Shown: positions 1 to 44,977 of the stretch, piece after piece | Layout: every line of letters starts with the position of its first letter | Numbering within the stretch: position 1 is the first letter of the stretch | Notes under the pieces: generated by a model | The model's database searches: none | What the model saw: the letters and a program-made list of their open reading frames with translations, nothing else | Told to the model about the DNA's origin: nothing | Assembly: GCF_041146345.1 (NCBI RefSeq) | Contig: NW_027191402.1 | Coordinates: 1,178,001 to 1,242,000, forward strand | Direction of reading: 5' to 3' | DNA length: 64,000 nucleotides | Source: Neodothiora populina | Lineage: Eukaryota | Program-made: the position numbers and the translations under genes

Positions 1-1370
1 CGCGAGTCAGGCCGCCCGCACGGCTCGAAGTCCATGCGGGAAAGGTCGGCTTGTCGATGCGATGCACGTCAGTGCCGTGCTCGTTGACATTGGGGCAGTT
101 GCGATCCAATGGGCCGCAATCGTCCAAGCCCAATAAGCAGCGTGGAGTATAAAACGGCATATTCTGCTTGTCCGCCCGTGTTCCATGAGTGGGTTGTATC
201 ATACTCGACACGTGTCCGCTACCCCCTCGCGTCCGACTCGCCCGCGGCGCTGGCTGTCGACGCGGCTGACCTGAGCTGTCAGGCTCTTCGTGATCTGCAT
301 TCGGGCTGTCCTTTTCAAACTCCCTCCCAGACGTCGGGCGGCATCCGGACCTTGGAGCAGGCTCAGCAGCCTTCTTCTTAAAGACGATAAGTGACACTCG
401 CAGGAGCTTGTTGCGCAGCGGCAATGGGCAGTATACTGAGGGTGTAGCGTCCGGCACTGCAGGAGTCTCGTCGATGATCTCGGAATATGTGTACTCCCAC
501 GTCACTAGTCAGTCCCGCGCTCTCTCACGTCATGTATGCGACCGAGGTGGAGACTGAAGAACTTGCAGAGTGGATGCTAGTACCCAAGCCACCGCCGAGA
601 GATGCAGTCGATTCTCCGTGCTCGACTGGTCGTTATCAGACCATCCCGTTGTTGATCCCACATCAGCCTGTGGCACTGACAGCAAGTAGTAAACCGTCCG
701 TGGGTTCTCTGGCACTGGCAGAAAGATGAAAGCTTCCTCGGTGCTAACATATCCGAACTCGCGCCCTGCTGCCACCATGTACAAGCAGGCTTGCGTTCCC
801 GCGGCAGCCACAAGGCGCTGGCATTTCTTGCGAGGCGAGTCTTCATTGCTGTATTCCAGTATGTCAGTCAGATCCGTGTCCCGGAGACCTTCTTGAAAAG
901 GCCCCAAGATCAGCTTGTGGGGCGCCTTGTACTCGATGATAAACGCGGCCACCCGTTCTTCTATTTCCGAGCCCTTTGACATGTTGTACACGCAGAACTG
1001 ATCTGTTCGAGGGCGACTCGTCAGCGCGTGACCCGTCGGCGCATGACTCTTCGGTGCATGACTTGTCGGCTCACGCGCGACCAGGCCGGCATCCGGACTC
1101 TTTGGCTGATCAGCACCGCTAGACATTCTCTCCTTCTCCAACAGCCGACGAGATCGACGGCGGCCTCTGCTCGACAATTCCACCGCGCTCATGCTGCTGT
1201 TGAGAGCATTTTCCGGGGTGAGCGTGTTCGCGTGGTCCTTGGTCGCTTTTTTTGCAGTGCATCGGAGGAGTCGCCTATGGTTGACAGGTCACTGGACTGC
1301 ACTGAGAGGCCAGATTGGAGTTGCACGTGGCGTTCGTTCAAGAACTGCGGCAGTGTTATGTATGTGGCAA
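1..1370 (-). pseudogene. Spok-like protein relic (PD-(D/E)XK nuclease, Cys cluster, start of kinase domain); runs off the window start
   Basis: ORF 530..1192 has RTDQFCVY...IIEYKAPHKL...TQACLYMV..G.EFGYV. An N-terminal TLPQFLNERHVQL segment lies near 1310-1360. Past a premature TGA (530) and frameshifts, the minus strand at 40-160 reads FYTPRCLLGL...LDRNCPNVNEH...IDKPTF. Confidence 0.75.
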
Positions 1371-1879
1371 AACGAACTGAGAATGATCTGCAAATGATGC
1401 AATATTAGCCGTTGTATTCTTCCTAGCAGTATTTGACCGAATCATGCAACATGGCACATCACCATTACACGAAAGCGGAAACAGTCTTTTCCGAGAGTGA
1501 GTGAAGTGTCAGCATGTCTGGGCATTTATGGAAGTATGACAGGCTCAGTCACCAGGTCAAGGAACGCATCGAACATATCGCTACCACGAGTAGAGCTCTG
1601 ATATAGGCCAGCGGTTGAAGTCTTCAGGTGTCGGATATCGACTTCCTTCTATCATTGGAAAGCAACACCTCTTGAGAGCATACTACGGCTGGTGGACATA
1701 AAAAAGGACCCCCGAAAGTATCTGCTATGTACTAGTATAATTTATCATTAGCGTAGGTCTTCGCTAGCAGGGGACCGAAGCAAGATCTCAATCGCTTGGA
1801 TCGGCTGATCTACTTAGCAATCACTTTCGAGGGAATTGTAACAGGCTCCATGTACAGAGCTTATTGCGACCAGCTTTCA

Positions 1880-4122
1880 CTAATTTAACATCTCTTCATA
1901 TGCTCCCGCAGTATACACTAAGCGAATGACGTTGAGGCCAAAGCTGAAGTACACGACCTGTGGCCACGAAACCTGTTCTAATTCCTTCACAGCATCGACC
2001 CCTGTCTGAAGCTCTTCTATGCTCACATCCAATCCTTGAAGATGATCTCGATGATAATCTTCTTGGAGCCATGTAACTTGGACATACCCCTGACAAGTAG
2101 AGCTTGAAGCTGCTTCACTTTCAGTATTTGTGGTGAGATCGCTACCGATGCAATGCTCGGATGTCACGGCCAGAATAAGATGGAAATTTGAAGCATATAC
2201 GCTGATATCGCGAGCTCCCTGGAAAAGAAGTAAAGACACTGGAACACCTTTCCGGAGTCTGACTACCTCGCCAGGGAGGGGATATGCTTTGGCAGTATGT
2301 GAATCTTCTCTAGGGACTACACGTAGCAGCGGCTCATAGTTTGAAAACGTTATTGTACCTTCCGATCCAGGCTCATAGCGTCTCGACCTCCAATCGACAC
2401 CTTTGGAGAAAGTCTCGTCCGGCAGCTCAGTAGATCTTCTCTCCTGGTTGGTACTGAGCTGTTTCAAATCAAAATCATACGCTCTTTGAGACGTTGTAGA
2501 TCCAGATTTGTCTTCTGATGGGATAACATTGTCATCTATGATAAAGGGTGCAATTTCGGGGTCTACCACTGCAGGTTGCCTTGTGAGAGTGCACCGGGAT
2601 TCCAAATTGGATGGGACGAATTCAGCAGTCTCATGCTGTGAAGCATAGCCATGATGAACTCTGTAAGCCTGTGTCGATTGGACTATTGTGGTTGTTGACG
2701 CCGTTCCGGATGGGAGGATAATACTCTCCTCAGGCTGAGGAAAGGGACTTCGATCGAGTTTCAGCTCTCGTGTGATACGGCAGGAAATCTCTTCCTCGAA
2801 GTTCCGCACTGTCGCAATGAGATTAGGTGATCTGGAGCATGTTGATCCCAATAGATCTACTGGCAACGCCCACTTCTCATACAAACGTCCGTGAGAGCTA
2901 GGGATTAGGAAGCGTTCATGTACTCGAAAAAAGAGGTTGCAAAGGAAGCAAGCCTGTTTGTTCGAGGAGATAATTCTCGGAACAGTTTCGGAGGTCGTGA
3001 TTTCATAATGAAGCAGCAACTGGATTTCCGCATGGACAGGATAATTTAGAGTTGCTGCTTGTTTTATGAAATCTATAGAATCTTCCGTACTCGTCACGCG
3101 ACCGTCTTTTTGCAATCGACGTCCACGAGCCATGCTAAAAAGACACTTCGTAGCATTAAGAGTAACGTTGTCGATCTCCACGACTAGATGTTTGGCTGGC
3201 CGAAGTTTTATTGGAATGTTTTCGATGTTGTTGAACATCCTGAATCTACGTGAGTAATGTATCAGCAAGTTGGTTGCTCTCAAATATCGATTAATCTTCC
3301 TCAATGTCTTTATTGACCCGGACAGGGATGAAGTCAGTCCATGATCTTCAACGATTATGACCAAGCGGCTACACTTCTGCACTATCTCCATGAGCAGATC
3401 TAATCCAGGCGCCGATGTCACCACCTCTGGTTCAAGGTGTTCGAGACGCTTGAAAAGGGACGCCAGATGTTTTGTAGCTGAGCGCAGAGTTTCTGTTGTC
3501 GATGTGGAGATCCGTTGGCCTGCAACTGTGTGACAAGCCTCCAAATCTCTGCACAGTCCAGGGATCCACGATGGTCGAAGACTCCTCGCTTTCTTGAAAT
3601 TACAGCGCATCTTCGCGTTTCTTAACCTGCAAAGAATACGATTCCGATGTAGAGCGACAACCTCATGTAAGACGTCGCAGTTCTCTGAGTGAGACAAGCG
3701 TGGTCCCGTGAATCAGTAGAGTACTATGACCTTCAACAAGCTGATAATGATGACGAACGATGGGTACTTTGATCTTGCAAGATTCGTGCAATTCTCTCCA
3801 ATGCCTCCTTGACGACCGACAAGTCCCCTTTATTGACTGCTATTTTGATTTTTATGCGTTGCGCAGACTCGTATTCCTCAACGCAGGCTGCCGCTACTCT
3901 ACCTGGATCGTCACTATTTGCCGCCAAAAGCGCGAAAATCTCAGCCAATCGACGTTCTTGTTTGAGAGTTAATATTCTTTGCGAGCTGCCTCCTTGAATC
4001 ATCTCACTATGGTACCCATTCCAGTTTTCTGATGGAAGATTTGGTTTGTCGTTTATATAATGCGATAACACGGTTTTTTGGGCTAACCCCGACAAGTCTT
4101 CAATCTTTAACGCTCGATCCAT
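1880..4122 (-). CDS. OTT_1508-like nucleic acid deaminase (two exons, about 722 aa)
   Basis: HAEIQLL...PRIISSNKQACFLC...SHGRLYEKW motif. ORFs 3733..4122 and 1880..3697 join in frame through a phase-1 intron at 3685..3758 (GTTCGT...ACTGAT...CAG). Confidence 0.85.
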
Positions 4123-5879
4123 TGTTCGGGTTGATTGATAAAGATCCCCGCACGATTTAAGCCTTGGTGGCTATCTAAAGATTTCAAGGGCGTCAAGGTC
4201 GACGTCCTTTATACGGGAGGTTGAAATATGCATCTTATTTTTGCATAGTACTGTAAGTGTCGCATGTTGGTCGCATAGGATCTGCGACTTCCAGCAGCTA
4301 AAGACGCACATGGGGTGGCGATCGAGGCAACTAGATCCAAGACAGGCCAGGCCCTCCTTGTTGCTGGTAGTGGAAAGTGTGGGGTTTACTGGATGTCAGC
4401 AAGCATCTAGCCCGTCTTATGCGACGAGAGCACCTGTAGGCGATAGTTAGAGACAACAACAGATGCAAAAATACTTGGTAATGCATTGATAGATTGCAAC
4501 TACTTGTATACCTAGCAGCAAAAAGAGACTGAGAGCAAAGCCATGACAAGGTAGTTGGTAGACGGCTGATAGTCAGGGAGCGGTAGCTGATTGTACCTCC
4601 TATGATACACGACCAGAACATATTTTTGATCATGGCTATACCTGGCTAACTACTCCCTGCAAGTATCGCGGAGCAGCTCTCTACCCTGCTAGAGATATCG
4701 CATGAGTTTCACGCATTGTGAGTAGTTATGAAAGAGCGCCGAATCTCTGGTTGAGCCTAGTGCTAATTCTTCATCTGCTGATAACCGATAGTGTATGCAT
4801 GCACATGTGATCGTGGAAATGGGTCACGCCACTCGAGCATGAACAAGCAAAATGGTATAATGACTACATCGGGCAAATTGCATCTTGTTCTTACGCCTGC
4901 TTGCATGTAATCAGTATGATAAGCGGTAGTGCAGATCAAGATGTCATAATCTCATAGGCTCCGAGACCCTCTTCACCTAAGCGATGGACGAAGCTGGAGA
5001 GATATCTCCATTTATCACGCATCTAAAGTAGAGTGAATTGGAATACTGCAAAAGATTGGGTTCCCCATATCACCCCATCAATACATTAGCCTTGAAAAGA
5101 CGACTATTCTCGGCACAACGACAAGATTCCATGACCTGTCAGTGGATCATCTAACTTAGGCCAATGCGCTGAGCCGTTGAAGCTCAAATCTCTTCTCCAA
5201 GGGGGATCCCCGAGCACCATGAAGCCATAAGTTGAAGCTGGGCTTCTCTTCTCAATCATCTGGGTGCACGACTATCCGACTCAAGGATGGATGGGTTCAA
5301 CAAGTATCCTTCATCTTGACTGTCTCGAATGCATCAAGTACTTGATAAGCAGATTCGGCACACCACGCCACGCTGATCAACCGTCATTCCAGGTGAGAGA
5401 TGATCGTTGCACTTTTGCCCTGTGACAATTCCATCGTCAGAAGATCGCATAGCGTATCATTCTGAGTCAAATCGGCGCCCGAAGTCACAAGACTTGTGGG
5501 TGATAACGAGGGTTTGAATGACAATCCACAGGGGTGTGCAAGTATGTGGACAGGAATTGAACAGCCAAGTAACAAGGGATCGTGTCACAGTATGGTGGGG
5601 TAGAGTGTACATGTGAAGACTGCATTATCCGAGTCAGAGCAGGGCCCCAACCGCATCCAGGAAACTAGAGTATCTGTTCGACTTGCCGTGCTTGCGACCT
5701 CCTTGACAGGCCTGATTAAGATCCATCTCGCTCCATACGAAGGTTCAATGTGCGCACAAGGGTCGATTCACGGTATGTGACGGATCGCTGGTTCAATCAT
5801 CTGCTACAAGCTCGAATCGTCGGATATGTTCATACTCGCGTGAGAAGGGCGTATAGATAGTTCTTGCAGAGCGCGGCAC

Positions 5880-6355
5880 AGCTTCCAAACAGACTCCGTC
5901 ACGCCTTTGAACGACCCAAAATAACAGAAGTCCCATCCCCAAAGATTACTGGTTGCAGATGATCACCCGAGATTGGGTGCATCTCAATCGAATACTTTGC
6001 CAGTGGCCCTTTGTTGATGTCCTCGTTCACTTCGGGGTCGGTATTGATAACGATCCTATGATAATCGCTATGGAGCCGTGCAACGGATTTTCAACTGACC
6101 TGGCTCCTGAAAAACGAGATAATAGCTTTGGCCTATGTGCTGGCAGAGAAGTTCGTTATCGACGATTAATCCGGAAATGTGACCAACAAACCGTTTCGGC
6201 TCCCTTTGCAAGTCAATCGGTAGGCGTGCATTGTCGGAGAACTCCAGATGAAATTTGTGGGCTACTACTGCCTTCTCATCCTTGTTGAACGGAAAAGAAG
6301 GCACGAACTTGTTGATCTGACCAACTACTGTGGGATTTTTTGCAGTCAGTCTCAT
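5880..6355 (-). pseudogene. Degraded gene fragment of unknown family
   Basis: 95-aa ATG ORF (6068..6355) with protein-like composition that continues in another frame (HSDYHRIVINTDPEVNEDINKG...). No family recognised. Confidence 0.25.
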
Positions 6356-8156
6356 ATTTGCATCGCAGGAATTTTAATGTGCGACCAATCATGGATTTAC
6401 CCCTAGATGTCAACTTCCAGGTATCTACGAATCACTTAGTGTCTCGCAACAAGGCAGGGCAAAGCTAGCCTCAATGGAAGGAGTGTGATGAATCGAGAGA
6501 TGGCTTGCAGGCAATTTGACGTGATGTAGGCATGATCATCAGTGTTAGCGAGCTCGACAGCGGTTGAAGTCCACCCTATGCATGATAAGATTATCGTTGT
6601 CTTATTCAGGCACGGCGCGATGCAAGACTACGTATCGATAAAACAAACATCCTATAGCGGACTATCTGGCCGAAGCAGAAACTACTGTGGACACGTTCCA
6701 GCCGGATGTGACCAGTCAGAAACATTCTCGCCTCTAAATCACACTGTTCCTTGTATAATAGTGGTTTATATGCTCATGCGTTGAGATGAGACCTGGTATA
6801 TGATGTCTTCCATCCTTACTGTTAGCTAACCCTTGAACTTATGCTAAGCATCTCGACTACCGCAATGCCTTCATCATATCCTAGGAACCACTGGAATCAA
6901 TCCATCGAATCACCTCTATAATTTGTATGCACCCATGGTCAGGCTCACCCTGTGAGTTTAGACTGTTAAATTCTGATCGTCTCTTAGCACACTGTTGTTG
7001 CGGAATCTATGTCGTTTCCTGTCTGTTGAGTCGAATATACGACTGCTATACCGGATCCAGATATTCCAACATAAAGATACCGCAACTTCATCTCCGTGGA
7101 AACAAACCCTGACGAATCCGGGATCGTGCATCATGAGACTAGTGACACTACCGACGCTCAAGTTCCACCCCCATGACCAGAACAAATGTAATTCCTTGAT
7201 GATGAGAAGACGACAGATGAAGCCAGATGGGACATTCTACCGGCAGGGCAGACCAGACCGAAACTGGTCAGATGTACAAGATGGACAATAAACCGAGCGA
7301 TCCCTGCTTTTCAACGAAGTGGGGTCTTGAAGGATTGAAGAGTGTGCAAAGTTCAATGTACCAATGTAACTGAACCTTTTTGCATTGATTTGAGATCTGG
7401 CCATAGAACCTCAAGTATATTTCCTGGGGTGTGGTCCATAACAAGATAGACCTTTTCATCTGGCTGTTCCTATATTGCATAGAGCCTCGGTGCGGATATT
7501 TCGATGTTGTAGTCGATTTACAATAGGTTCTCTCCTTCGACAACGTCCTGATGAGGACTATACTGACGACATAGTGATCGCAAACGCGAATGATCTTTTC
7601 GTCAGCCCATTCCTTGATGTTCCGATAGGACCACCAGCGAACAAGCGAGCATGATTGCTAATTTCCCGACTGGAGCGATCAGTTTGGATACCGAGACGAA
7701 CGTTAGCGGTTAGGGTATTGTGCCGGTAAAAGTTCATTCGGAGAACTTGCTACCAATAGGGTCTTCGTGTACAATGTTGGGCGCTAATCAGTTTGGTCTT
7801 CCTAAAATAACTGCTGAGATTATTACTACACGCCCTCATTTATATTAAGGCAAGCCCCGCAGTAACACATCATTTGATCCTTCCAATTTCGAAGCTGGGT
7901 TGCGCGCTCGATTAGGCATTAACGCATATCTTGGAACCTCAATATCGGCTAAGCGATGCTTGTGGTTTTTCGCGGCTGATAACTAGGATCCAGTCGAGGG
8001 CTGGGGTATAAGTAGCTACAGGTAAGGTAGGGGGGTCGATGAAATATACTTGGAAGTGTATCACATATCGCGACTAGATCTGAGTGGAAACTTATGACAC
8101 CCTGCTACTAAGAATTGTGAAGTGAAGCGATAACGATTTGCTTAACGTGAAATAGG

Positions 8157-9119
8157 TTTTTTAAGCCCGTGGAAATTTTGGGACACGGTTCATTTTAAGA
8201 TGGTGGCCTAACTCACAACAATCCTGTTAACCTAGCAGTCTGGGAAGCAAGGCGTGTGTGGCCTTCCTCGTGTGCGCCGGACATAGTTGTTTCCCTTGGA
8301 ACAGGGACAACCCAATATCAACCAGGCTTAAATTCTCATCCATACCGGTCATCTAGAAATGGCTTTTTGACAAGGCTCTGTCGGTCATTTTGGTCCTCAT
8401 TAGACGGACAGCACAAATGGACGGAATTGCAGAACAATCTGGACGAAGCGAATGGGAATCAATATCACAGACTTAACGTCTCTCTAGACGCAGATATCAG
8501 CATCGACGACGTCCGGGCTGTCGAGCTACTAAAGAACAAAGTGCGCAAACAGGCAGATCTGGAACTTAAATGTCAAGGCATTATAATCTCGCTCTTATCG
8601 TCGTCGTTCTATCTTGAGCTGGACATGGAGCCGCAATTCGACGATGGCTTCTACCATTGCACCGGGACTATACGCTGTCGTAACAATCCCAATGATCTTC
8701 TACAAGTTCTTCTTCAGATGCCATACACGAACATGAGATTCACCTCTGATACAGGCTATTTGACCGACGTTGGCGGCGTGGAAGACATATGTTCCTAATG
8801 CCACCTCTACGTGAAGCGTGTGAAATTCTACGTACGACACCCAAAAGAGGTGATGACAATATACTTGGAAGCCGATAGTGATGTTAAGAAACGTATCAGT
8901 GGTTTCCCACACAGTATGGAATGGTTTGTAAGGGAGCAAAAACTGGATTCTATGTTTGGCACTCGGGAACATGATCATGCGGTGCGCCAAAAATGCGGGT
9001 TGTGTGAAGGACGTGGGAGTCGTAAGCGGAGATTCAACCGGAACAACACACGCGATCAAAAGAGGCTCCGGGGCGCCGGTTCGGTGATGCTGGACAGAAC
9101 GCAAATATCAATGTTATAA
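8157..9119 (+). pseudogene. Patatin-like phospholipase (PLP), C-terminal exon only
   Basis: After an acceptor ending at 8156 it reads FFKPVEILGHGSF*DGGLTHNNPVNLAVWEARRVWP...DIVVSLGTG (patatin DGG motif). In-frame TAA at 8196 and 8796. The N-terminal GxGxxG/GxSxG part was not found. Confidence 0.85.
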
Positions 9120-9142
9120 ATAGCACATTCCCTGCCAGCTTT

Positions 9143-10327
9143 CATGCTATGAAGCATCTACTGCATAATTCAGTTTCTTCTTCTTTGAACGTATCGCTCC
9201 TAAGTATGCAACCTATCGTCGAAATTAGTCGGAGCAGGACAAAGTTCCCCGGTGGACCTCTGTTGTTACGAAAACGCCCTGATCCACCGGCTTTAGAGAC
9301 GAACACTGCGATATCGCAGAAACGTCGTTTCCTCTAAAGCACGGCACTACCTTCACGCCTTCCCCTTAAAGTAAATCCTGATAGCAGTCTCTTCATGAGT
9401 TATGTCCGGAAGAAGAGTGGCGAAACCAACAACCTCAATAATGATGTTGAGTCGTCCAAAATCTCTTGGTCATCCTTTCGAAAGCTCATGCAGGAGGATC
9501 AGGCTGGTATGGCGCTCATTGCTCACCAGAATCAAGCAGACTTCCGTATAGTGGCCATCAAAACCAGAGGAGTGGGCAGTGAACAGTACAATGAAAATTC
9601 AAGACTCACGTCCTATAAGAATCTTGTCAATCTACAATCATTCTTTGAGCATGAAGGAAGCATGAACTTTGTCTACGAATCATGTTCGGTCTCCCTAGCT
9701 GATATACAAGCAAGTCCTTACGGGCTCCTTCAGGAATATGAAATAGCAGCAGTATGCAAAGAGGTATGTGATGACGGCTTGGCATCGACCTTAACTAACC
9801 TAGAGAGCTTCTTGAGGGACTCGGTTACATCTCGGAACTTCTTAGAGTCGGACATACACTTCGATGCGAAACTATCCTCGTGACTGAGGATGGTTACCCC
9901 AAGATTGGTACGTTGGTACTCTGATTTCGTTCCACTAGTATCAAGCTCAACATAACAGCGAATATTGGTGATATAATGTTGGATAGCCACAATCTTGAAT
10001 GCTTGGAGAGTAGCAGATTGCTTGGATATCTCCTCAAATATCTGCTTGAGCCCGTTAGTGTATTAGACGCAAACCACAAGCTCGAATTATCTTCACACAA
10101 TGTGTGGTCCAGTGATGCCGAGGATTTCCTCCTTCAGACCTAGATCAAGGGCGTGGAAGATTTGAAAGAGGTGCTCTCAACTAGCAACACGAGATAGAGA
10201 AGAAACGGATCACTCTCAGCATAATTTTTTACAGAGATCACCAGGACCGCATTGTCTGGTTCCCCATATTTTGATAGCCCAACGCACAATGCGGAAGACG
10301 TGGACCCTTCTGCCAGATCTGGACTAA
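9143..10327 (+). pseudogene. Degenerate protein kinase-like gene (three putative introns)
   Basis: VAIK...NLVNLQSFF...FVYE...SLADI...EIAAVCKE|LEGLGYI...KI|ANIG kinase-like succession. GTATGT/GTACGT donors with CTAAC-type branch sites. In-frame stops at 9334 and 10141. Confidence 0.75.
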
Positions 10328-10504
10328 TAGGTCTGCTGACTTAAACAGGCGCTATATAGCCGATCCCATACTGGGTCTATTGCACTGAAAGGGGCTCATG
10401 GAGACTTACTATGGACATATCGGTATCATATGGTAAACACATGCCACAATCTTCTACATTTATGTGTAGTCATTCGTCCATAGGAGCCTTATCCCTCCGC
10501 ATCT

Positions 10505-11053
10505 ATGAATTTCAATACTTCTATGACTATGGCTACATCAGTTGTTCGTTTTGCTCAGTCTGTTGTGACGTGTGTCTCCCGATCGCCAAATTGTGCAGAA
10601 GAACGAGCTATCTCAAGATTTGAGCACTATGCTTGGGTGTGTGGAAGCTGCTCCCTACCACCTGCTTTAGATCAAGGTAGCATTAGCCTCTGCCTAAGGG
10701 GTCTATCTTTCGCCGACCAGATATTGAGTCAATTGCGGTACAGCCGCGGCCACGCTATAAGCGTAGTGAATCGCCGGTGCTGGCATATTCGTGTAGAGAT
10801 ACCGACGCATTGTGAGGCAACCTGGGAGCTTCCGTATGCGGACAGGTACCTCCAGCGATTATCTCGCTTGTCTTCGACGACTCGATCAATTTCTCAGAGG
10901 ACGACTTCTAGTGCATCAAGCATCGTCAGTGCTTATTCTTCATTCTACGAAGTATGCCCAGATGTGGTGGACAGAATCGCCCGAGTACGGCGAAGGCTAG
11001 AGGATGGAGAGATATACAGCATAGTGCGTAGACTCACACGATACATTTGGTGA
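10505..11053 (+). CDS. Uncharacterised fungal protein with H/C pattern (FEHYAWVCGSC...LCLRG...VEIP..C)
   Basis: 182-aa ATG ORF, convergent with the DUF3435 gene. The motif spacing resembles a fungal hypothetical family. Confidence 0.55.
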   Translation: MNFNTSMTMATSVVRFAQSVVTCVSRSPNCAEERAISRFEHYAWVCGSCSLPPALDQGSISLCLRGLSFADQILSQLRYSRGHAISVVNRRCWHIRVEIPTHCEATWELPYADRYLQRLSRLSSTTRSISQRTTSSASSIVSAYSSFYEVCPDVVDRIARVRRRLEDGEIYSIVRRLTRYIW

Positions 11054-11204
11054 GATCTGCTGCATTTGTGAGCTTCGAGGGACATCCTTCTTTAGCATTT
11101 CATCGACATCGGCTTATATGAGTTGAATGGTCTTGTGACGGAAGCTCATATTTTTACAAAGAAAGATCTCATATTCGAGGAGATAAGAGGAATATAGAAC
11201 AGTA

Positions 11205-13645
11205 CTAGAACCGGCTATCAAGTCCATGAGGGGTTGCGCGAAGACGCGGACCATGGCAAGAGACCATGTGATGCTTCAATCGTTCCTCGCCATTAAATAC
11301 GAACCCGCACTCAACGAATGGGCAAACATCTGAAGCTTTTAAGTGGGTGAGATGTTCCTTTTGCACGTGAGTCTGAAGTACATCCAGTCTGCAAAACATG
11401 AATGCTCGTGCGTGCTCAGTCAAACGTTTATCTGAGAAGCACCACGGACACTGTAACCCGTGACAGACATTAAGATCGTCTGCAGCTGCTTCAACGCTAG
11501 AGTCGTTCGGCGAGGTTTGATAGTGACGTATTTCTCGTCGCGTACAAAGACTGATCATAGCCCCAAGAGCGAGAAGTCGATCAGCGCGAACAACATTTTC
11601 CGACAGAGTGTTAACATCCTCGTTTCGAAATAATGTCTTCGCTAACTGTCTGCGTTCCGGAAATACTAGCGACGGGATTTCTGGTAAATGTTGTGGTTTC
11701 AATCCCTTTCGTTGTCTATCAATCTCGTTGCAGCCAATATTATCGAACCACTCTTTCCGTTGAGATCCTCGATGATCGCGAGCTATCTTCTTTCTTCGCG
11801 CTAGTATAGCGCGTTGTGTCTTCACATAGACTTTGTGTTCATCAGTCGTCTTCGCCTTTTTCAGACTACTGTACTTTGAGTGTATAACAAGCCGTAGTTC
11901 TTTCAGCGCTAATTCGAGCTTTTCGAGAGTCGCATCTGGGAGGTCCGGAGTGCTTGACATACATGATATTGCAGCATGTGCACGCGGATCTCTCGTCAGA
12001 CTCATGTGGCTCGCGAGTCGTACAATAGCGTCACGAGAGGGTGTACCAAGATAAGCGGAGGATAGATCAACTGTTATTGTTTGGTTGACATAGTATTTGT
12101 CAAATATCTCTGATCGCGAGTGCCCCATGGCACGGTTGCGCTCAGCTGCTGTGGCAAATTCTAAGATGTCACTCAGTATTGTCTCTAGAATTGCGAAGAT
12201 ATTACTTACTGTCAATCGCCTCCCCTGCTCCACGACGTAGGCTGTACAAGTTGAAATTTTCTTTAAAGCCTGCCGAATGTCCAAGGCGCACAGTGTGCAT
12301 GCTTGCAACTTCGTAAGGCAAGCCAGTATGTGGAGAGCATGCAGGTCCGTATGAGGTCCTGCAACTGTTGCGCAACAGCGGAATATCTCGCATCTCGTCT
12401 TTCCATTCCAGCGGAACACTCATAAGATACTCCGGAACTTGAATTTGATTAAGATCAGCGGGCGTCCGTAGCTAGTCACTTTTGAACGCCTGATCTGCGA
12501 AAGCAAGTGCAAGAACGTGCAGAATTGGACAAAAAGCAAGGTTGTCGTCCCTCTCGTAGAGTATATAACATGGTGCCGACCCTGCATGCCGAGTGCCCTT
12601 GTGTAATCGGAGCTTGATGATCATGACAATCATGGTCGACGATGGTCGAGCTGGATCTCGCACCTTGAAAATGCGAATATCTTTGTATTTCAAGGAGTCT
12701 CTCTTAGCATCAGCGTCTTTACTGGACACTTGGAAAGTGTCTGCTTTTTCGCCAAGCTCTTCAAATGGCCGTCTGTATGCTTCTATGATCGTAGATGGGC
12801 GTGCAGACGTATATGCACATAGGAGCATAAGTAGGGATTGCTGGAGGCGGTGTCGCTCAGTAGGATAGACGTCTACACATCGAACCCAATGATGATAGAG
12901 CAAGTAGAGAAGATCGTCGACGTTGACGACTGGTTATCTTTCTGATCCTCAGAAAGTTCAAATTCAGTACGGAGATCAGTCTGTATAAACTGCTCGAATT
13001 TAGTATTCGTTCTGTGCCATTATACTTCTACTTTCTTACGTTTGTCATCTCGGACGCAAGAGGTAGAGGCAAAGGACGGAGTGTTTTCAATCTGTACGCC
13101 TGACGCCAGAACCGCATGGACACAAACAATGTTGAGACTCGTTGTATGTTCGATGTATCAACAAACCAGTATATCCATCTCTTTATTCTTTCTTTATTTA
13201 GATTGTGAAGTTCTGCTTGGGGGTCAGGAACGCCCATCGCTTCGCAATACCTGGTAACGATTTAGCTTAACCCGTCTAATGGAGCAGATTATGTATACTT
13301 CTCCCAGCGTTTCCACATTCTAGCCACACTAAGCAAAGTCGCTGGTCGGAGGCGTATACGAGAGTCTGGATCATCATCGTGAAAGAGGCCGAGGTAGAAC
13401 TCTGGACCTCGTGACAAGTCTTTTTGCGGCTTCCTCGCCATTTCTTCGTAAGAGGTTTCGGGACTGCATTTGATTGAGGAGAACGAGGGCACGTTTTGGT
13501 TATAAGCCTGTTCGGTAGCATTGCTGCGGCATGAAATGCTGCCATGGAGGCATATGTGCATATCGTTGAGGAGAGAGGAGGACTTGTTTGACATCTCTAA
13601 CGCCCATCTCAGCCTATCAGAGATTTCTTGGCGCGAAGCGACCAT
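11205..13645 (-). pseudogene. DUF3435 tyrosine recombinase (Starship captain-like) with C-terminal C2H2 zinc fingers, disrupted
   Basis: Introns at 13251..13298, 12990..13039 and 12161..12209. Motifs YTSARPSTI, LRLHKG, FCPILHVLALAFADQAF, YSLRRG, RNRAMGHSRSEIFDKYY, LTRDPRA, CPWC..H and CPFVEC..H. One-base frameshift near 12933 and an in-frame TAG at 12472. Confidence 0.92.
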
Positions 13646-14505: not shown

Positions 14506-15642
14506 ATGGTGAGAAGCCCGGCATCCGTTTCGCAAGATGGTTTTCGAGGACGCCAAATGCACTTTGTGATAAACGGCCACCATTCTGAAGGTCATGCGTC
14601 TACTTCAAAGCTGATCAGATCGACTGCTGCACGAAATGAATGGAAAGATCCGAGACAGAGGAAGTTATCTGGATCGCAACCAAGCGTTCCACAAATCGTG
14701 ACGAGTCACAGCAGTATATCGTCTCAGCATAAGGGTAAAGCCACCCGTACCTACACTTTTCATGGTACTGGCTAATGCTGACAACGTTCATTAGCAACGT
14801 CTCTCAGAAGTAAACAAGCAAAATCAATACACATTGATGTCCCGTCTTCGTATATATCTAGCGCTGGGCAGCAACGAAGCAAACAAAACAAAGATCGCAG
14901 ATTGAACTTCCTCGAGACAGTACTCCTCGAAGAGTATCCTCTCTGGGCCGCAATGGGAAATGCTAGCGATCCGTTCAATAGGTATCCAGCACCATGGAAC
15001 CCCGCTTTTGGGACACTTTTGGAGTTCTGTGAGTATACATCTGTACATGATCTAGAATTTACATGTCCCACGTCAATCGATACTAATCTGGACTTTGTAG
15101 GGGTTACATACATCAGCCCTGGCTGCCCGAAAGAGATCAGTCATGGATGGGATAGTACGATGACGTCAGCATTTGCCAATGTGCCCCTCGTAGCAAGTGT
15201 CAACAGCAGTGAGCCCGCAGCTTTCTACTCGATCCTGGCGCTATCTGCAGTCATGTTACCTGACACACACCCTCTCGCACCCAGTCGATTGCCACGGCTA
15301 TCTCAAACCCTCCAGACCAAGGCACTGGCGACCTTAAACACCGCCCTGACCAAAGCTCAACAAGCCACTGGCAACTCCACCATTGTTGCCCTTGTCGCTC
15401 TTGCATGCTTGGCCATGTACTTTGGACAGCATGCTGCCGTCAGATCCATATATCTCCCACGGTTGAAGCGCATAGTCGAGGCGCGTGGAGGACTTGGTCA
15501 GATTGCGCGCGAAAGTGGTCTGATGCTGCCTCGCTGGTGCGCGTGGGGCGACTGCGTCTTGACTTCGCAAGCAGGTCGCTCGCCTCTGTTTCTCGACTTT
15601 GAAAATGCCAGCAAAGACTCAACTGGTTTGGACCATCACTGA
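14506..15642 (+). CDS. Fungal-specific transcription-factor-like protein (no Zn2Cys6 cluster seen), possibly 3'-truncated
   Basis: Exon 14506..14734, then intron 14735..14794 (GTAAAG..GCTGAC..TAG), joins the 14902 ORF in frame. Motifs LIRSTAAR, GNASDPFNRYP and L..IVEARGGL. Confidence 0.6.
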
Positions 15643-18600: not shown

Positions 18601-19006
18601 ATGTTCATTCTACCAATTGGAAGACCTTAAGCATGCCAAGTTTACAACCAGGCGTCCATACATAGATAGCTATGTTGCTAAAGAAGATTACTTTGTACCC
18701 ATATTACCGCGATACATATGCACGTGCGCTGAAGCGAGCCACTGTACAACACATATGGCAGGAAACAGCATTATTACGCGTCTCATCATGAGGCTACGGT
18801 ATCACGTCATGGGATGATTTGCGTGCGCAGACCTGATCTCGCTCGACCGTTAAGTTCCTGGGTTTCCCCTATGATCGAACACGACGCAGGCAAGAAAGCG
18901 GTGTATCCAAATCTCAAGCCTCGTCAAGTTCTACTTCTAGGTGCAAAGACGCAGTCAGGGCCAGAGGTGTGTTGCTGTCTGATAGTGACAGACCAAAGAT
19001 AAACCA

Positions 19007-20838
19007 TTGTCTGAAGAACCGAATTCACCAGCATCTACGCCCTTGGCATCTCCACTGCCTGGGAAGAAGCGATCCGTACCATCAGACGTCAAAATTTCAG
19101 CAGAAGGATCAAGGCACCTGGAGATTCTCGATACAAAGCCCACACCGCCTCCAATGGCCAGCAAGGTCCAGCGCGCGCACACGCAACCCGATCATAATCC
19201 CGATACTCCGATGTCAGAGGCTTTTCCAGACACATCGGTGCAAGGGCTTGTTTCAGAAGACTTGGTCATACCGGACTCACCATCGGTCACCAGCAAACAA
19301 TTGGAGGGTGAGATAGCGATGATCTACAAAGACCTACTTGCTGTGGAGGCCATGTGCATCAGCTTCTATAAAGCGGAGCTTACGAGTGATAGCAGTAGTG
19401 GTATGCCTCAAGATCGCGAGAAATGGCAAAAATCGATGGCCCTACACCGAAGTCTGTTATACCAATACCATGATTTTCTCTATGTATCGCAATATCCTGC
19501 AGCGACCGAAGATCTTAGGGGATTGGCTCTGAGATATGCTTTGCCAGCTCGTATGTGGCATCGCGGGATACTTCCGTTTCTAGAGGTGCTGTATCGACGC
19601 CTTCCAGATTCGACGGACTACTTGCTTCAATTCAATTGCATGGCATATCAGATGATTGCTCTGCTGTACGAAACATCCTTGGCCTTCAAATTAACATAGA
19701 TGGAGTGCTTGGGGAACCTGGCACAGTTCAGAATGACTATAAAGGATGGTGTTCAAGACGATAGCGATATCTGGGCAGAGGTGGCTCGGTCATGGTACTA
19801 CTCAGCAGCGTCCGACATGAGACCGGACACAGGTCGATTGTATCACCACCTCGGCAATCTAGCCAGATCAAACGCGGTAGAAAAACTTTCACTCTTTTGC
19901 AGATCTCTAGTCTGCGTCACGCCATTCCAGAAAGCCCGCAATTCTCTCTGGGAGCTTTTAGAATCTACTCCCGACGTTGGGCAATCTGGATGCTCTTTGC
20001 GCAGTGTCCATGGACTAGACGCATCATTCCTTCGTATTCATGCTGCAATGGTTGCAAAGCTTGCTGGGAAATCCAACAGCCTGGGTTTGTCAGCGAATGA
20101 AGAGGAGAGCCAGAGAACATACGTTTCTGGGCTTGCCGAACAAATTGACAACCTTGGAGAGGAGTGGAAGAAGCATGGTGTGTTCCTCGCCACTGCTATG
20201 ATAGCAGCATGTCTTGACTATAGCTATGAAGGGACTGGAAACCCCCTTTTGGTCGCTTTAGCATGTCCGCCAGGTACTTCGAGTAGTGCAAATGCCACTC
20301 GGAGAACAGACGACAACTGGTGTGGGTCATTGCGAGCTACGCGCCTACTTCTCTCGGTCTTTACCGTAGTTCTTGGTCGTAAGCCGACTTCACGGTTCTA
20401 CTTCATGTCCACGTAGTCCTTGTCTTCATCCGCAGCGTCGCATCGCTGTCCAACAGTTCGACACCATGTCTGCGCACATTCCTTGATCTTGTTCCATGGA
20501 CTGAGATTGAAGCGTTTCTCAATAGCTTTGCTCAGCCCAAACCATTACTGAAGCATCACCTGGATATTACTCATCTCAAAACGATGGAGCGTAGCTCCTG
20601 TCCACTATTTGAAGATCACTCGCTGAGAGGAGCTGCCTGGGCTGGCAATCATCCTGCTGAGGAATGGTTTGGCAACCCATCAGACGATACTCCAGGAGCA
20701 TTTGAGACGGCGAGTATCAACCACACAAGACTACAGAGGGTCCTGTATTTGTTTGACTCAATATCCGAGGCTAGTGGTCTTATTATTGTTCTTCACCCCA
20801 ACGACATCCCGCGACATAGTGAGAAGGGTGCATATTGA
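19007..20838 (+). pseudogene. Est1/Ebs1/SMG6-like TPR-type DNA/RNA-binding protein
   Basis: LHRSLLYQYHDFL...PARMW..GI..FLE...T*MECLGNLAQFRM...ARSWY...GRLYHHLG...PLFEDHSLRG..W. TAG at 19697 where W is expected, and a frameshift near 20384. Confidence 0.85.
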
Positions 20839-23865: not shown

Positions 23866-25755
23866 GATGGTAAAGAGTGCTTGGGATGGTCACGGCAACA
23901 AGATCGCTATATTGCAAAAGAGGCAGATGACATATGGCAGTGAAGGGGGGGTCACGGCAACGATGACAGAAAGGAAGAAGGGTATAAGCAAGACGGCTCG
24001 CGCCCTCGCGGTTTGGAAATAATGTGAAAACATATGGCACCGTCCTCCGACTAGCGGAAAAACTTTGGGGAGAAAGACAGACGTATTAGTTGATGAGCCG
24101 ATGTGAACGTGAGGGCGGAGTAAGCAGATCACAACAAGCATGCTATGAGACGAGCAATGAAGGGGCTCCCTCGTTAGACGCCACTGCAAAAGGCCAACGC
24201 TTACCAAAGGAAAACGTGCCTACGCATGTTCAGCAATATCAGCATGTCGATAGTACCAAAGTTTCGATAGTCAATGCGACGTAGGTTCCCACTGTGACTT
24301 CAAGCTCTTGGAGGATGTACGAGCTACAAAGCCCTACTATCCCAAGAAGCTCTTCCTGAGTAATTTGCTTAGTCTGATTATATGTCATGTCTTTTTTTAT
24401 TCGCACGTCAAGAGGTACCCACATCGAAGATGTATATCGTCGCAACAACATTGCTATTGGAAGAATATTCCGTAACGCGGCGTGAAGTTCATCTTCTACA
24501 AATATACCGTTTTGCTCAAGGAAAATGTGCAGACATACAGCCGCTGGCGTGCATTTGATAGCATCTGCCATAATTAGACTTCGCAGGCCCACAAGATCAT
24601 AAGTCGTAAAACACAGGGTCAGGTCCGCAGTTCTTTTTACCGTTCAGCCTTCCATGCTGTTGACGCAACGTTCATCTGTATCTTCCGACTCCCGAGTCAC
24701 TAGTAATATACTATATAACTACAGGAGTCGAGAACTCGACAATGCTGATTATCGTAATTCTCCGGACTTGTGATTTCGCGGACTCGCGATTTTCACAGAC
24801 TTGTGGGTTGGAGTTGAGAGGCCTTACGAAGCGCTATAGTATGTAGTACCTGACGTTTCGATAGTATAGAGTACAACTTCCTCCTTCCCTTACCGACCGC
24901 AAGAATATTATCACCCTTAGTCTTATACACAGCGACTGTAGCATCAGTTTCTATTATAACAAACATTTTCAGATGAACTTAGCTTACAGTATTCGCAATA
25001 AAAGAAACCCGCAGAGTATAGTACTACTTCACTAACAGTTTTATGTAGACCCCAGCTTCGAGCCCTGAATTCGACGTGATCTTGGAACCACAGAATGAAC
25101 GAGGTTGACTTTTCAGTTTTTCGATTCTACGATACTAGATTTTCGTTTTGGCAGATACGTAAAGTAGGTAATTATGGCCGACCGTCATTAGTAGGTTACA
25201 TGGCTATAGTTTCACGAATCATAAGGCTCACTAAAGACAAACGTTACATCGTTGCGAATAGAAGCTTAAGCCAAGGTCCATGATAGTGCCAATAATGATT
25301 GCCACAGGGTACATTCGTTGATAGTAGTGATTAGATACGAAGTATGGCAGACAGCTGTGGTAGCGAAGAGATGCCTTCTCCGTAGGTACGAAAAGAATCC
25401 ATGCCGTTCTGCATCAGCAGAGGTACAGTACTTCGCCTGCATACAGCGAGCGGGTGCAGAGCGCCCACTTCCGAGGGTTCAAGGCTGCTTCCGGGACTGT
25501 CACGTGGCAGCGATCCGACATCTTTCCGTTCGCCAAGGCCCAGGGCTCAGGGTCCATCGATTCACACTGTTCACCTACAAAGATACTGTTCACCTACTGT
25601 ACACTGATACTAATACAAGGTCTGAACCTTTGTCTACAGTTATACGGCCCGTTCTCAATCTGCTTTGGTGTGATCGTAACTCACAAGCGTAATTTATGCA
25701 TTGCATCAATTACTTACTGATTACGAATCTTATATAACGTGCCTGGACTTCGACA

Positions 25756-26649
25756 GTGAGTTCACAACTGGTGCTTCCATATTATAGAGAAGAGCGCGAC
25801 TTACCTGCGCCTCTACCGTCTGTCGATGATATTCGAGCTTCTACATACTACCTCAAAGGCGCCGAGGAATGGGCTGATGAAAAATTTGTTCGCGTCGGTG
25901 ATCACTTTGTCGTCAAGTATAGTCATTATCAGAACGTTGTCGAAGGCGAGAATCTATTGTACATCGAGCAAAATCTCCAGATATCTGCACCGAGGCTGTA
26001 TGCAATGTGGAAAGAGCCAGACGGAAAATTCTATCTTGTTATGAACTACATCCCTGGAAATACACTCGAGGAATTATGGCCGACCCTCCGGCCAGATGGA
26101 AAAGCCTCCATCGTGTCAAAGGTGAAAGAAGCGTTAGACCAGATGCGTGCCCTTCCTTCTCCTGGTTTTTTCGGAAGTACCGCGAGAAATTACTTGCCCA
26201 CTCCTCTTTTCTACTGGCCGGAACGCCCGCGCAGTGTATGCGGGCCGTTTCGAGATGAGCGCGATCTCGTGATGGGATTAGCATCAAAGTCTCGGCTTAT
26301 AGCCGAAATGAATCATAAGCACTCGTTCCTAGCGGACTCTTACGACGGCTCGCTGATCCACGATCTTGTCAAGACTGACCGGGCGTCAGTCTTCACTCAT
26401 GCGGACCTCCAAATGAAAAACATCCAGGTAGAAGAGATTAATCCTGGAAACCCTTCCAATAAGGAGTACCTGGTCTCAATTTTAGATTGGGAGAACGCTG
26501 GATGGTACCCGTGCTATTGGGAATATTTCTCTGTCTTCATAGCATTCCGATGGGATAGCGACTGGCTCGATCAAGCGACTAAAGCCGTCGTTGCATGGCC
26601 TGCAGAGGCAGCAATGCTCAGACTGATATATCAGGATCTGTGGGTCTAA
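25756..26649 (+). CDS. Aminoglycoside phosphotransferase (APH)/choline kinase-like protein
   Basis: FVVKY...EGENL...APRLY...YIPGNTL, THADLQMKNI, ILDWENAGWYPCYWEY. The ORF opens on GTG with an in-frame stop at 25735 and no upstream ATG. Confidence 0.85.
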   Translation: MSSQLVLPYYREERDLPAPLPSVDDIRASTYYLKGAEEWADEKFVRVGDHFVVKYSHYQNVVEGENLLYIEQNLQISAPRLYAMWKEPDGKFYLVMNYIPGNTLEELWPTLRPDGKASIVSKVKEALDQMRALPSPGFFGSTARNYLPTPLFYWPERPRSVCGPFRDERDLVMGLASKSRLIAEMNHKHSFLADSYDGSLIHDLVKTDRASVFTHADLQMKNIQVEEINPGNPSNKEYLVSILDWENAGWYPCYWEYFSVFIAFRWDSDWLDQATKAVVAWPAEAAMLRLIYQDLWV

Positions 26650-37043: not shown

Positions 37044-38317
37044 ATGGCTATGGATGTTCACATGGACGATAATGCCCAAAGGACACCGACGACGACAACA
37101 ATCAAACCCCGAGGCAAGAAAGCGCTCAGGGGCATCCGCAGCCACAGCCGCAGCAACAAAGGCGCGCCCGGCGCAGCTGGAGCAACAGAAGACGCTCGAC
37201 TCGTAGAGAGCAGCCTACGGGACAAGACAGCAGCAAAGAGGAACAGCAATGGGGGCGACAAAGCGACAAAGAGCAACACGGCATGGGCGGCCTAGTTGAT
37301 GCTTGAGCCTCCACCCCTGCCTCCTCTTCCTTATGCAGCCGCCGCCGCCGCCGCCGCAGGCACACTCTCCTCGGCCTCGGTCGCACCCTCGCAATCCGCC
37401 TCACAGATGATGGATTATGCCTCGGCCTCGGCGTCGCAAGTCTCCGGCGCGTCGACGAGCCACCGCACCGGTAGCCCCGTCAGACGCGCCGCTGCCCTCC
37501 GGAACGCCCAGAAGCCTGTCCTGTTTCCCCGCTTGACCGCACACAATCGACCCGCCAATGTGGCTGATCTGTTGGATCAACTCAAGGACGTCGAGACTGG
37601 CATGGGCTTTGTGCCGAAAGCCATCGAGGCTCGGCTGGCCCGATTGGTCGACGACGAGGGCAAGAAGCTGCGACCTTGCAACACGGACAACAGCCCGACG
37701 AGCGCCGCTGAAGATGCCAATGCTATACAAGACCTGGCCCTGCTCGAGTTCCTCTACACCAACGCGACCTTTCTCCAAGAACGGCTTTGCCGGCGAGGCG
37801 GCGTGCAACGAAGCGATACACTATCCGCTCCTCTCTTTGGCTCTGCGGCCCTTCAATCAACACGTGATGCCATTCAATGTGTAAGAAAGAAAGCCACCAC
37901 CCTAATACCCTAACGCTGACAAGTCGGTTTATCAGTACAGCGGCTCGCATCTGCCCGGCCTTGGTCCCTCAGCATGGCGACATGCGCGATCGCTTACAAT
38001 CAAAAATGGTTAATTATACCGTCAACACCATCCCCAACACCGACCGAGCTAAGGATCGCATCCACGACATCATCGTCAACCAGGACTCTTCGCTCCAGAC
38101 GATCACCCAGACAACCTACCCTGTCGTCGACCGTCTGCCATGTGCCATATCCATCATGACCAAGCTTGCCACCTCCGGCGACGATGGCAGAGCCCAGATT
38201 GGAGTCTGGTCTTCGGCCTACTTCACCTGCTTGCACGAACTCCGCAAACAACGTCCCCTAACCATTCAACAACCTTCGTATTACCGGTACCCTAATCATA
38301 ATTCAATGTCTGGATAA
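37044..38317 (+). pseudogene. Fungal PD-(D/E)XK nuclease-like protein (PF20516-type), frameshifted and 3'-truncated
   Basis: GC-rich coding-like segment. SKMVNY...TITQTTY...PCAISIMTK...AQIGVWSSA resembles the KMVDY...SINQT...ISIETK...QLG.W consensus, with the catalytic acidic residues altered. Stop at 37293 and frame breaks. Confidence 0.7.
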
Positions 38318-42042: not shown

Positions 42043-42245
42043 CTCTCCCGTCGTCATGTCGGGAGGAGAGAAGATGCTGGAAGGAGGGTAGAAAGGACAC
42101 TATTGGAAGATGCAGGCGAACAAGCCGCTATTGCTCTCCTGCCGTTATGTCGGGAGGAGAGAAGATGCTAGCAGGAGGGCAGAAGATAAGATACCCAATG
42201 AACATGCAGGCGAGCAAGCATATTATGGTATCCTCCCGTCGTGTC
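42043..42245. repeat. Imperfect tandem duplication of about 90 bp
   Basis: CTCTCC..CGT.ATGTCGGGAGGAGAGAAGATGCT...GGAGGG.AGAA...ATGCAGGCGA.CAAGC occurs twice, with the start of a third copy. Confidence 0.85.
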
Positions 42246-44838: not shown

Positions 44839-44977
44839 TAGGTTGGACGGCTTGTGCATCCTAGGATGCCCGCGCCTTGTTTAAGGGCTTGGCGTTGCTC
44901 AATTTAAGGCAAATATCCCGCATTACACCACCTCATCCAATATAATCTCTATCCCACGCGTCTGCAACTCCTCCAAC

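What the first reader, a model, noticed from the sequence alone, without database searches (positions are those of the whole stretch)
1..1370. Spok-like meiotic-drive gene relic downstream of a Starship captain
Seen: an EYK-type nuclease motif, a C..LLGL...LD..CPNV..H cysteine cluster and the start of a kinase-like segment, in that order. Known: Podospora Spok spore killers have this domain order and ride in the Enterprise Starship. Inference: this element carried a Spok homolog that has since been inactivated by a W-to-stop change, frameshifts and an internal deletion. Homologs need not be drivers.
Basis: partly seen in the sequence, partly recalled or inferred. Interest (0 to 1): 0.75.

Follow-up and report, generated by a model that had tools for sequence, protein, structure and literature searches.

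The report
Dead Spok-family gene near dead Starship
This is a broken, distant relative of the fungal "spore killer" genes, lying near the broken mobilising gene of a giant transposon; such relics are already known to be common, and the one unusual detail is a spliced RNA read from the opposite strand.

Summary
On the minus strand, from window 1356 to about 550 bases left of the window, lies a Spok-family gene. Podospora SPOK4 matches its nuclease/cysteine part (25%, E 3e-11) and its kinase (31%, E 1e-13), and the catalytic residues are kept. It is dead: start and coiled coil are gone, two frameshifting deletions (about 93 and 13 codons), four premature stops, the first cluster cysteine lost, and 72 of 322 conserved positions changed (intact relatives 0.3-8%). 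No sequencing-error or RIP explanation was found. It groups with intact Cladosporium-type and environmental proteins (55-60%), far from the proven Podospora drivers, so drive by its ancestor is inferred only. The genome's single DUF3435 captain lies 10 kb upstream on the same strand and is also broken. Starship carriage is likely, but no element ends could be defined. Spok pseudogenes and Spok cargo on Starships are both published. One extra: cDNA-derived contigs cover the relic and show a 61-base intron spliced from the antisense strand, whose donor overlaps one of the nonsense codons; most likely cryptic transcription. Verdict: new member of a known kind, low interest.

The parts
1240..1356 (-). 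Remnant of the first 39 codons of Spok domain 1; no start codon or coiled coil upstream
   Evidence: tblastn of P0004 residues 59-97, 69% identity, E 1e-11; DNA match to L020 begins at 1356; relic lacks P0004 1-58
1234..1240 (-). Junction of deletion 1 (about 93 codons of domain 1), with a change of frame
533..1234 (-). PD-(D/E)XK nuclease domain in one open stretch; residues matching SPOK3 D219, K240, Q294 and Y298 are kept
   Evidence: alignment A1; model of 533-1192 mean pLDDT 81.4; best fold matches BpuSI Z 6.0 and V. vulnificus HsdR Z 4.6
530..532 (-). Premature TGA
   Evidence: no difference in X1 contig 1-13424
509..511 (-). Second premature TGA, same frame
508..568 (+). 61-base intron of an antisense transcript (GT..AG on the plus strand); its donor overlaps the TGA at 509-511
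   Evidence: joint 507 to 569 in one X2 contig, depth 11.2, 30 letters on the short side; only plus-strand intron-like donor found by a motif scan of -600..1800, both splice sites absent in L020
155..508 (-). Low-complexity linker between nuclease and cysteine cluster
41..154 (-). Cysteine/histidine cluster; first cysteine replaced by tyrosine (codon 149-151), other two Cys and two His kept
33..41 (-). Junction of deletion 2 (about 13 codons), with a change of frame
1..32 (-). Start of the kinase-like domain; continues left of the window to L001:951, with a TAG at L001:1122-1124 between the catalytic loop and the DFE motif and a TAA at L001:1023-1025
   Evidence: Pfam APH E 0.0008 and Kdo E 0.003, both under the curated cut-offs
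1880..3712 (-). OTT_1508-like deaminase, 610 open codons; neighbour, probable co-cargo
   Evidence: PF14441 E 3.9e-18
8199..9116 (+). Degenerate patatin-like phospholipase C-terminal part (a Starship auxiliary gene type); weak call
   Evidence: Pfam Patatin E 0.08 on the DGG motif; Atlas 0.92 to a cluster with Patatin in 19% of members
11205..13441 (-). DUF3435 captain, the only one found in the genome; frameshift near 12935 and in-frame TAG at 12472-12474; three introns spliced in cDNA
   Evidence: closest relative found Delphinella strobiligena, 62%

Best explanation
A pseudogene of the Spok family, left as dead cargo of a derelict Starship. The ancestor was a single protein of about 780 residues: coiled coil, domain 1, PD-(D/E)XK nuclease, Cys/His cluster, kinase. 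By analogy with SPOK1-4 it worked as a one-gene toxin-antidote, the nuclease damaging DNA in nuclei or spores that lack the gene and the cluster plus kinase protecting carriers (inferred, not shown for this branch). It probably arrived downstream of the captain at 11.2-13.4 kb (inferred). Loss of the 5' end or the domain 1 frameshift would silence toxin and antidote together; both halves then decayed without selection (decay shown, order inferred). The captain died too. The locus is still transcribed, at least partly antisense with a new intron, most likely as cryptic transcription without function.
For: SPOK4 hits, E 1e-13 and 3e-11, shuffles at most 26.6 bits. Colinear 54-69% matches to intact 779-803 aa proteins over all domains. 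77 of 78 homologs carry the precomputed family PF27653, as does SPOK4. Lesions listed. Relic differs at 72 of 322 columns invariant in close relatives, in nuclease (26 of 145) and kinase (25 of 92) alike; the 8 intact relatives differ at 1 to 27 of 314-340. End branch 0.5 against 0.03-0.22 for its 8 clade mates. X1 contig 1-13424 has 0 substitutions and 1 gap, at 2927, outside the relic; X2 contig 569-1785 has none. One captain locus and one Spok locus found in 24 Mb, 10 kb apart, cargo side, same strand. Grognet 2014 reports Spok-like pseudogenes as frequent; Gluck-Thaler 2022 reports Spok homologs in numerous Starships.
Against: No direct repeats, terminal repeats or empty site were found; the genome has no relatives in the tool. 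Only 1 of 80 related loci shows a captain-like match and none shows the deaminase or the patatin piece, though the median locus is only 13 kb. The window is the last 64 kb of its contig, among other mobile relics, so proximity is less telling than the uniform 0.001 suggests. The patatin call is weak. The branch holds no protein known to me as tested, and 4 of 6 Fusarium homologs had no effect in yeast. X1 and X2 are one sample, and X1 may be the source of the assembly.
Confidence: 0.75

Rival explanations
1. Same dead Spok-family gene, but not cargo of this Starship: it reached the contig-end region on its own or with another element, and the captain is a chance neighbour.
For: No boundaries found. 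A RIPped retroelement remnant and another repeated element lie 4-7 kb left of the relic. 79 of 80 related loci lack a captain-like match in the flanks held. Only 33 of 408 Fusarium Spoks lay in known Starships.
Against: Cargo side, same strand and 10 kb from the only captain found; a patatin-like piece in between; both genes decayed.
Confidence: 0.17
2. The locus has a present function through RNA: the antisense spliced transcript silences the remaining nuclease-only frame (533-1192), or acts in trans against incoming Spok genes of the same branch.
For: cDNA contigs cover the relic and include a plus-strand spliced form. The nuclease frame keeps its catalytic residues and models as a folded domain. 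SPOK3 cut at residue 490 is toxic.
Against: No other Spok gene was found in the genome to be silenced. The nuclease frame lacks domain 1 and has changed at 26 of 145 conserved positions. The joint rests on one contig of one run. The longest plus-strand ATG frames are 64-121 codons, and I did not search them.
Confidence: 0.05
3. The gene is intact in the organism and the breaks are assembly errors, as reported for some Fusarium Spoks in Nanopore assemblies.
For: Such artefacts are described. X1 may be the assembly's own source, and it differs from the assembly by one base in a homopolymer at 2927.
Against: Deletions of about 280 and 40 bases, a missing 5' end and about 70 substitutions at conserved sites are not base-calling errors. 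The cDNA-derived X2 contig matches 569-1785 exactly across deletion 1 and the 5' edge. X1 holds all 213 sampled words of L001:900-3000.
Confidence: 0.02
4. Stops are bypassed by readthrough or A-to-I editing, and the gaps by introns, giving a working protein.
For: The first TGA lies opposite a conserved tryptophan.
Against: Bypass of stops cannot supply a start, 93 missing codons or two frame changes. The only spliced form seen is on the opposite strand and is 61 bases long. No A-to-G difference is listed within the relic or at the captain stop.
Confidence: 0.01

Closest known systems
Podospora SPOK1, SPOK3, SPOK4 (UniProt A0A447CCJ8, A0A516F180, A0A516F183; Vogan 2019, PMC6660238)
   Same: Domain order nuclease, Cys cluster, kinase; D219, K240, Q294, Y298, D667, N672 and D686 equivalents kept; HsdR of V. 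vulnificus, that paper's best HHpred hit, is second in the fold search.
   Different: Only 25-31% identical; EYKAPHK instead of DYKAAHK; separated by several branches of support 99-100; no start, no coiled coil, most of domain 1 missing, first Cys lost, no intact frame.
Unnamed intact Spok-like proteins: Cladosporium halotolerans WHR41_09570 (P0009) and environmental P0004-P0008, P0010, P0011
   Same: 54-60% identical, colinear, one clade with support 100.
   Different: They are uninterrupted 764-807 aa proteins; I found no functional test for any of them.
Spok pseudogenes (SpokPsi1 of P. anserina; the psi genes of Grognet 2014, PMC4022471)
   Same: Missing 5' end, multiple stops, deletions, transposons nearby.
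   Different: Different branch and host class; no RIP signature here; an antisense spliced RNA is seen here.
Spok-carrying Starships: Enterprise (Podospora), Arwing with FOXG_14774 (Fusarium oxysporum), and degraded Starship regions (PMC9156397)
   Same: DUF3435 captain with a Spok-family gene on its downstream side.
   Different: Captain and Spok both broken; ends undefined; about 10 kb apart; captain family not assigned; closest captain found is from Delphinella.

Membership tests
Spok family (broad, Spok-like) | Sequence similarity to SPOK proteins in both nuclease and kinase parts | tested here: met
   tblastn E 3e-11 and 1e-13, shuffle control; blastp of the pieces against SPOK1/3/4, E 2e-18 to 7e-19 and 1e-17 to 7e-17
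Spok family (broad, Spok-like) | PD-(D/E)XK catalytic motif and QxxxY motif | tested here: met
   D, K, Q, Y align with SPOK3 D219, K240, Q294, Y298
Spok family (broad, Spok-like) | Restriction-endonuclease-like fold of domain 2 | tested here: inconclusive
   Top two matches are restriction enzymes (Z 6.0, rmsd 4.6, 104 aligned; Z 4.6, rmsd 4.6, 89 aligned), but Z under 8 is weak; Foldseek gave no match at E 0.001
Spok family (broad, Spok-like) | Cysteine cluster C-x3-C-x13-C-x5-H-x7-H | tested here: not met
   First Cys is Tyr in the relic; the last spacer is 5 residues as in its relatives. The 8 intact relatives keep all three Cys.
Spok family (broad, Spok-like) | Kinase-like domain with catalytic Asp (D667) and DF motif | tested here: met
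   HRD..N and IDFE present, but in a frame broken by a stop; the intact relative P0009 matches kinase folds
Spok family (broad, Spok-like) | N-terminal coiled coil and complete domain 1 | tested here: not met
   P0004 residues 1-58 and 98-190 have no counterpart
Spok family (broad, Spok-like) | Pfam PF27653, carried by SPOK4 and by 77 of 78 homologs | not testable with these tools
   The scannable Pfam copy gave no family even for SPOK4; the label comes from precomputed tables
Functional Spok spore killer | One intact open frame for toxin and antidote | tested here: not met
   No start, two frameshifting deletions, four premature stops
Functional Spok spore killer | Spore or vegetative killing with self-resistance | not testable with these tools
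   Needs a bench assay
Podospora-type (clade II) Spok | Groups with SPOK1-4 in a tree | tested here: not met
   64-row tree, SH-aLRT only, midpoint root: the relic lies in a separate clade. F. poae FuSpok1/2, FOXG_14774 and NECHADRAFT_82228 were not among the named rows.
Starship | DUF3435 captain at the 5' end, pointing into the cargo | tested here: met
   PF11917 at 11205-13441, minus strand, relic downstream; the captain is a pseudogene
Starship | Auxiliary gene (DUF3723, FRE, PLP, NLR) | tested here: inconclusive
   Patatin-like piece, Pfam E 0.08, Atlas 0.92
Starship | Direct repeats, terminal inverted repeats, empty insertion site enclosing the relic | not testable with these tools
   No related genome held; self-comparison of 124 kb and repeat search of the left flank gave no candidate ends
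RIP-inactivated sequence | Excess of CpA-to-TpA changes, positive composite RIP index | tested here: not met
   Index -0.58 at 1-1000 against +1.27 at the retroelement remnant 7 kb left; 26 of 70 changes are C>T or G>A, 7 of these 26 in CpA context

The most novel reading that the evidence does not exclude
A dead spore-killer gene reused as a regulatory RNA: the same base changes that put a nonsense codon into the sense frame created the splice donor of an antisense transcript, and this RNA now silences the residual nuclease-only frame or guards the host against incoming Starship-borne Spok genes of the same branch, making it an RNA suppressor born from a driver.
Probability: 0.05. Interest if true: 0.7.

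Novelty: new member of a known kind. Interest (0 to 1): 0.22.

Why it matters
As it stands it adds one Dothideales example to two published patterns: Spok-like pseudogenes, and Spok homologs downstream of Starship captains. Its practical value is a pointer to an apparently untested branch of intact Spok-like proteins (P0004-P0011, 55-60% to the relic, about 27% to SPOK4) that keep every catalytic residue; testing one would show whether toxin-antidote activity is ancestral to the whole family or confined to the Podospora/Fusarium branch, a question left open in PMC12693581. If the antisense RNA proved to be a suppressor, it would be a route to Spok resistance that I did not find described in the listings.

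Tried and rejected
Pfam scans of the nuclease and cluster pieces gave no family, and none for SPOK4 either, so the blank carries no weight. A profile search of solved structures with alignment A2 showed only kinases among the 60 rows shown. Foldseek on the nuclease model: no match at E 0.001. The first metagenome scan, with one protein, confirmed none of 175 stretches; the alignment scan gave 98, of which 80 were kept. No second copy of the relic's DNA or a second Spok gene was found in the genome; the weak extra rows (L009, L104, L105; E 4e-4 to 3e-3) cover a low-complexity stretch or only the kinase loop and were set aside without further test. Element ends: captain 5' remnants elsewhere match only up to 13743 and for 62-116 bases, too little to fix a boundary. 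RIP, assembly error, and editing or readthrough were considered and rejected (see rivals). No RNA holder was listed by the run search; X2 is read as cDNA from its splice joints, not from its record. Transcript ends and levels were not inferred from contigs. Earlier findings of the scan: nothing by place or sequence, two unrelated notes by words. PMC13535494 matched only 'Spokane'. A domain scan of the left flank L002:2701-9900 was not obtained, so its content is read from repeats and composition only.

Full report
Setting. The window is G000:C4:1178001-1242000, the last 64 kb of a 1,242,800-base contig in a 24 Mb genome. Two flanking proteins are labelled Neodothiora populina, and the cluster of one of them is filled with Aureobasidium proteins; the placement in Dothideales is from my own knowledge. 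L001 is the relic with 1.5 kb of left flank (L001 position = window + 1500).

Observation. Six-frame translation shows on the minus strand a short piece ending at 1240, then a long frame with IIEYKAPHK, two TGA codons (530-532, 509-511) and the cysteine cluster down to 41, then a third frame from about 38 that runs out of the window. In the left flank this frame holds HRD..N and IDFE motifs, with a TAG between them and a TAA in the tail. Intact relatives align colinearly: P0004 residues 59-97 at 69%, 190-568 at 56%; P0009 593-786 at 54%.

Is it Spok? The search with the nuclease-to-cluster part gave 78 proteins among 4684 candidates, none named Spok; 77 of 78 carry the precomputed family PF27653. 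A second search from a distant hit returned SPOK4 of Podospora anserina, which carries the same family, and its cluster gave SPOK1 and SPOK3. SPOK4 hits the relic at E 1e-13 (kinase, 31% over 177) and E 3e-11 (nuclease and cluster, 25% over 310) in 74 kb; 30 shuffles reached at most 26.6 bits. The residues that Vogan 2019 names (D219 to K240, QxxxY 294-298, D667) are all kept; the first cysteine of the cluster is tyrosine. In SPOK3 the C493A C497A double change impairs resistance. An intact relative models at pLDDT 83 with a kinase fold. The relic's nuclease frame models at 81 and its two best structural matches are restriction enzymes, at weak Z (6.0 and 4.6); Foldseek found nothing significant for it. 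The family is large: 606 representatives at 50% identity match the nuclease frame.

Which branch? In a quick 64-row tree (SH-aLRT only, midpoint root; rows chosen by me) the relic falls in a clade of support 100 with a Cladosporium halotolerans protein and seven environmental ones, next to other Dothideomycete and lichen proteins and several well supported branches away from SPOK1/3/4. It is a Spok-like gene in the wide sense of Grognet 2014, not a member of the Podospora driver clade. The tested Fusarium genes were not among the named rows.

Is it dead? Against P0004 the relic lacks residues 1-58 (start and coiled coil), 98-190 and 569-581; both internal gaps change the frame. At columns invariant among close intact relatives it differs at 72 of 322, against 1 to 27 of 314-340 for each of 8 intact proteins left out in turn; nuclease (26 of 145) and kinase (25 of 92) have both decayed. 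The changes show no RIP pattern: 26 of 70 are C>T or G>A, spread evenly over contexts, and the local index is -0.58, while a retroelement remnant 7 kb left scores +1.27. Run X1 holds all 213 sampled words, and one of its contigs covers 1-13424 with no substitution and one gap at 2927. X1 may be the assembly's source, but X2 also matches 569-1785 exactly. Of 80 related metagenome loci, 39 show a stop or a frame change in the match (a crude count that can include alignment overrun), in line with the statement that Spok-like genes are often pseudogenes.

Starship context. PF11917 matches one locus in the genome, window 11205-13441 on the minus strand, so the relic lies 10 kb downstream on the cargo side. 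The captain has a frameshift near 12935 and an in-frame TAG at 12472-12474, both also in X1 and X2; its closest relative found is from Delphinella strobiligena at 62%. Between them lie an OTT_1508-like deaminase, an APH-like relic and a weakly called patatin-like piece; patatin-like genes are one of four auxiliary types. Against carriage: no ends or empty site, only 1 of 80 related loci with a captain-like match and none with the deaminase or patatin piece in flanks of median 13 kb total, and other mobile relics just left of the gene. Uniform chance of this proximity is about 0.001, an underestimate for a contig-end region. I put carriage at about 0.8 given the pseudogene reading.

Transcription. 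X2 is not on record as RNA, but its contigs skip three captain introns and two introns of the gene at 14.7-15.1 kb, so I read it as cDNA. It covers the relic, and one contig joins 507 to 569 across GT..AG on the plus strand, antisense to Spok. The skipped 61 bases have a donor, branch-like site and acceptor of fungal type and start at the only plus-strand donor that my motif scan found in -600..1800. The donor overlaps the TGA at 509-511, and neither splice site is present in L020, the closest intact DNA (64% identical). One comparison at that distance cannot date the sites, and the joint rests on one contig with 30 letters on its short side. No target Spok exists elsewhere in the searches of this genome, so cryptic transcription is the likeliest reading.

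Mechanism. Shown: homology, domain order, lesions, decay of both halves, a broken captain nearby, antisense splicing in one run. From published work: SPOK nuclease kills, cluster and kinase protect, killing acts on DNA (PMC9972908), and a Starship-borne spok stabilises a dispensable chromosome in F. oxysporum. Inferred: that the ancestor did the same, that it came on this Starship, and that a 5' lesion came first.

Novelty. Spok homologs in Starships, Spok pseudogenes and degraded Starships are in print. I found no paper on this locus or on antisense RNA over a Spok gene in these searches: Spok + antisense (20 papers, 15 listed, judged by title and start of abstract), Starship with four Dothideomycete names (15 of 1,072 listed, none holding 'starship'), 'Spok homolog' + Dothideomycetes (0), Spok + pseudogen + Starship + degraded (4). 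Papers seen: PMC6660238 passages, section 17, list of supplements and file 6; PMC4022471, PMC9156397, PMC11162782 and PMC13535494 passages; PMC12693581 passages and section 17; 10.64898/2026.10.04.756499 abstract and Discussion; PMC9972908 abstract; PMC8092012 search listing only. Supplementary tables of the Starship surveys were not read, and bioRxiv supplements are closed; they may list elements of this kind.

Verdict. Observation confirmed, interpretation supported with the two qualifications above. New member of a known kind; interest 0.22.

Noticed in passing
G000:C4:770175-770382 (L016, L017) and G000:C18:36177-36238 (L018): Short remnants (62-116 bases, 83-90%) of the captain's 5' region at two other places; the C4 copy lacks 228 bases across the start codon. 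They suggest older insertions of the same Starship family.
   Followed up: partly
window 6450-7614 and 25865-26911: Inverted, about 81% identical paralog pieces of the APH-family gene at 25738-26649, on opposite sides of the captain.
   Followed up: partly
L002:2838-3567 and window 63268-64000: AT-rich repeat remnant with a strong RIP index, 89% identical between the two places; shows that RIP acts in this genome.
   Followed up: partly
L002:5160-5930: Element with short tandem and inverted repeats and a 66% copy at G000:C13:1942738-1943428; possibly the end of a DNA transposon.
   Followed up: no
window 1880-3712 (minus): OTT_1508-like deaminase with 610 open codons, ending about 520 bases from the relic's 5' edge; X1 lacks one base of a homopolymer at 2927, where the assembly's frame is the open one.
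   Followed up: partly
window 9338-10300 (plus): Degenerate kinase-like stretch next to the patatin-like piece, judged by eye; Pfam gave no kinase match.
   Followed up: partly
window 14782-15642 (plus) and L019:232-1052: Fungal_trans_2 transcription factor gene right of the captain, spliced in cDNA, with a 75% paralog on contig C14.
   Followed up: no
window 18989-20838, 37868-38317, 48740-49408: Est1-like, PDDEXK_12 nuclease and protein kinase fragments right of the captain; the region looks like further accessory DNA.
   Followed up: no
window 44623-44841 and 42043-42245: Tandem repeats of about 72 and 91 bases.
   Followed up: no
window 52932-60497 (minus): ABC transporter, ArgJ-family gene and an RNase H frame near the contig end.
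   Followed up: no
P0015: A close Spok-like protein (64% to the relic) is annotated in an avocado assembly; probably fungal contamination.
   Followed up: no
L088:8445-9458: The one related metagenome locus with a captain-like match, about 5 kb from its Spok-like gene on the opposite strand.
   Followed up: no
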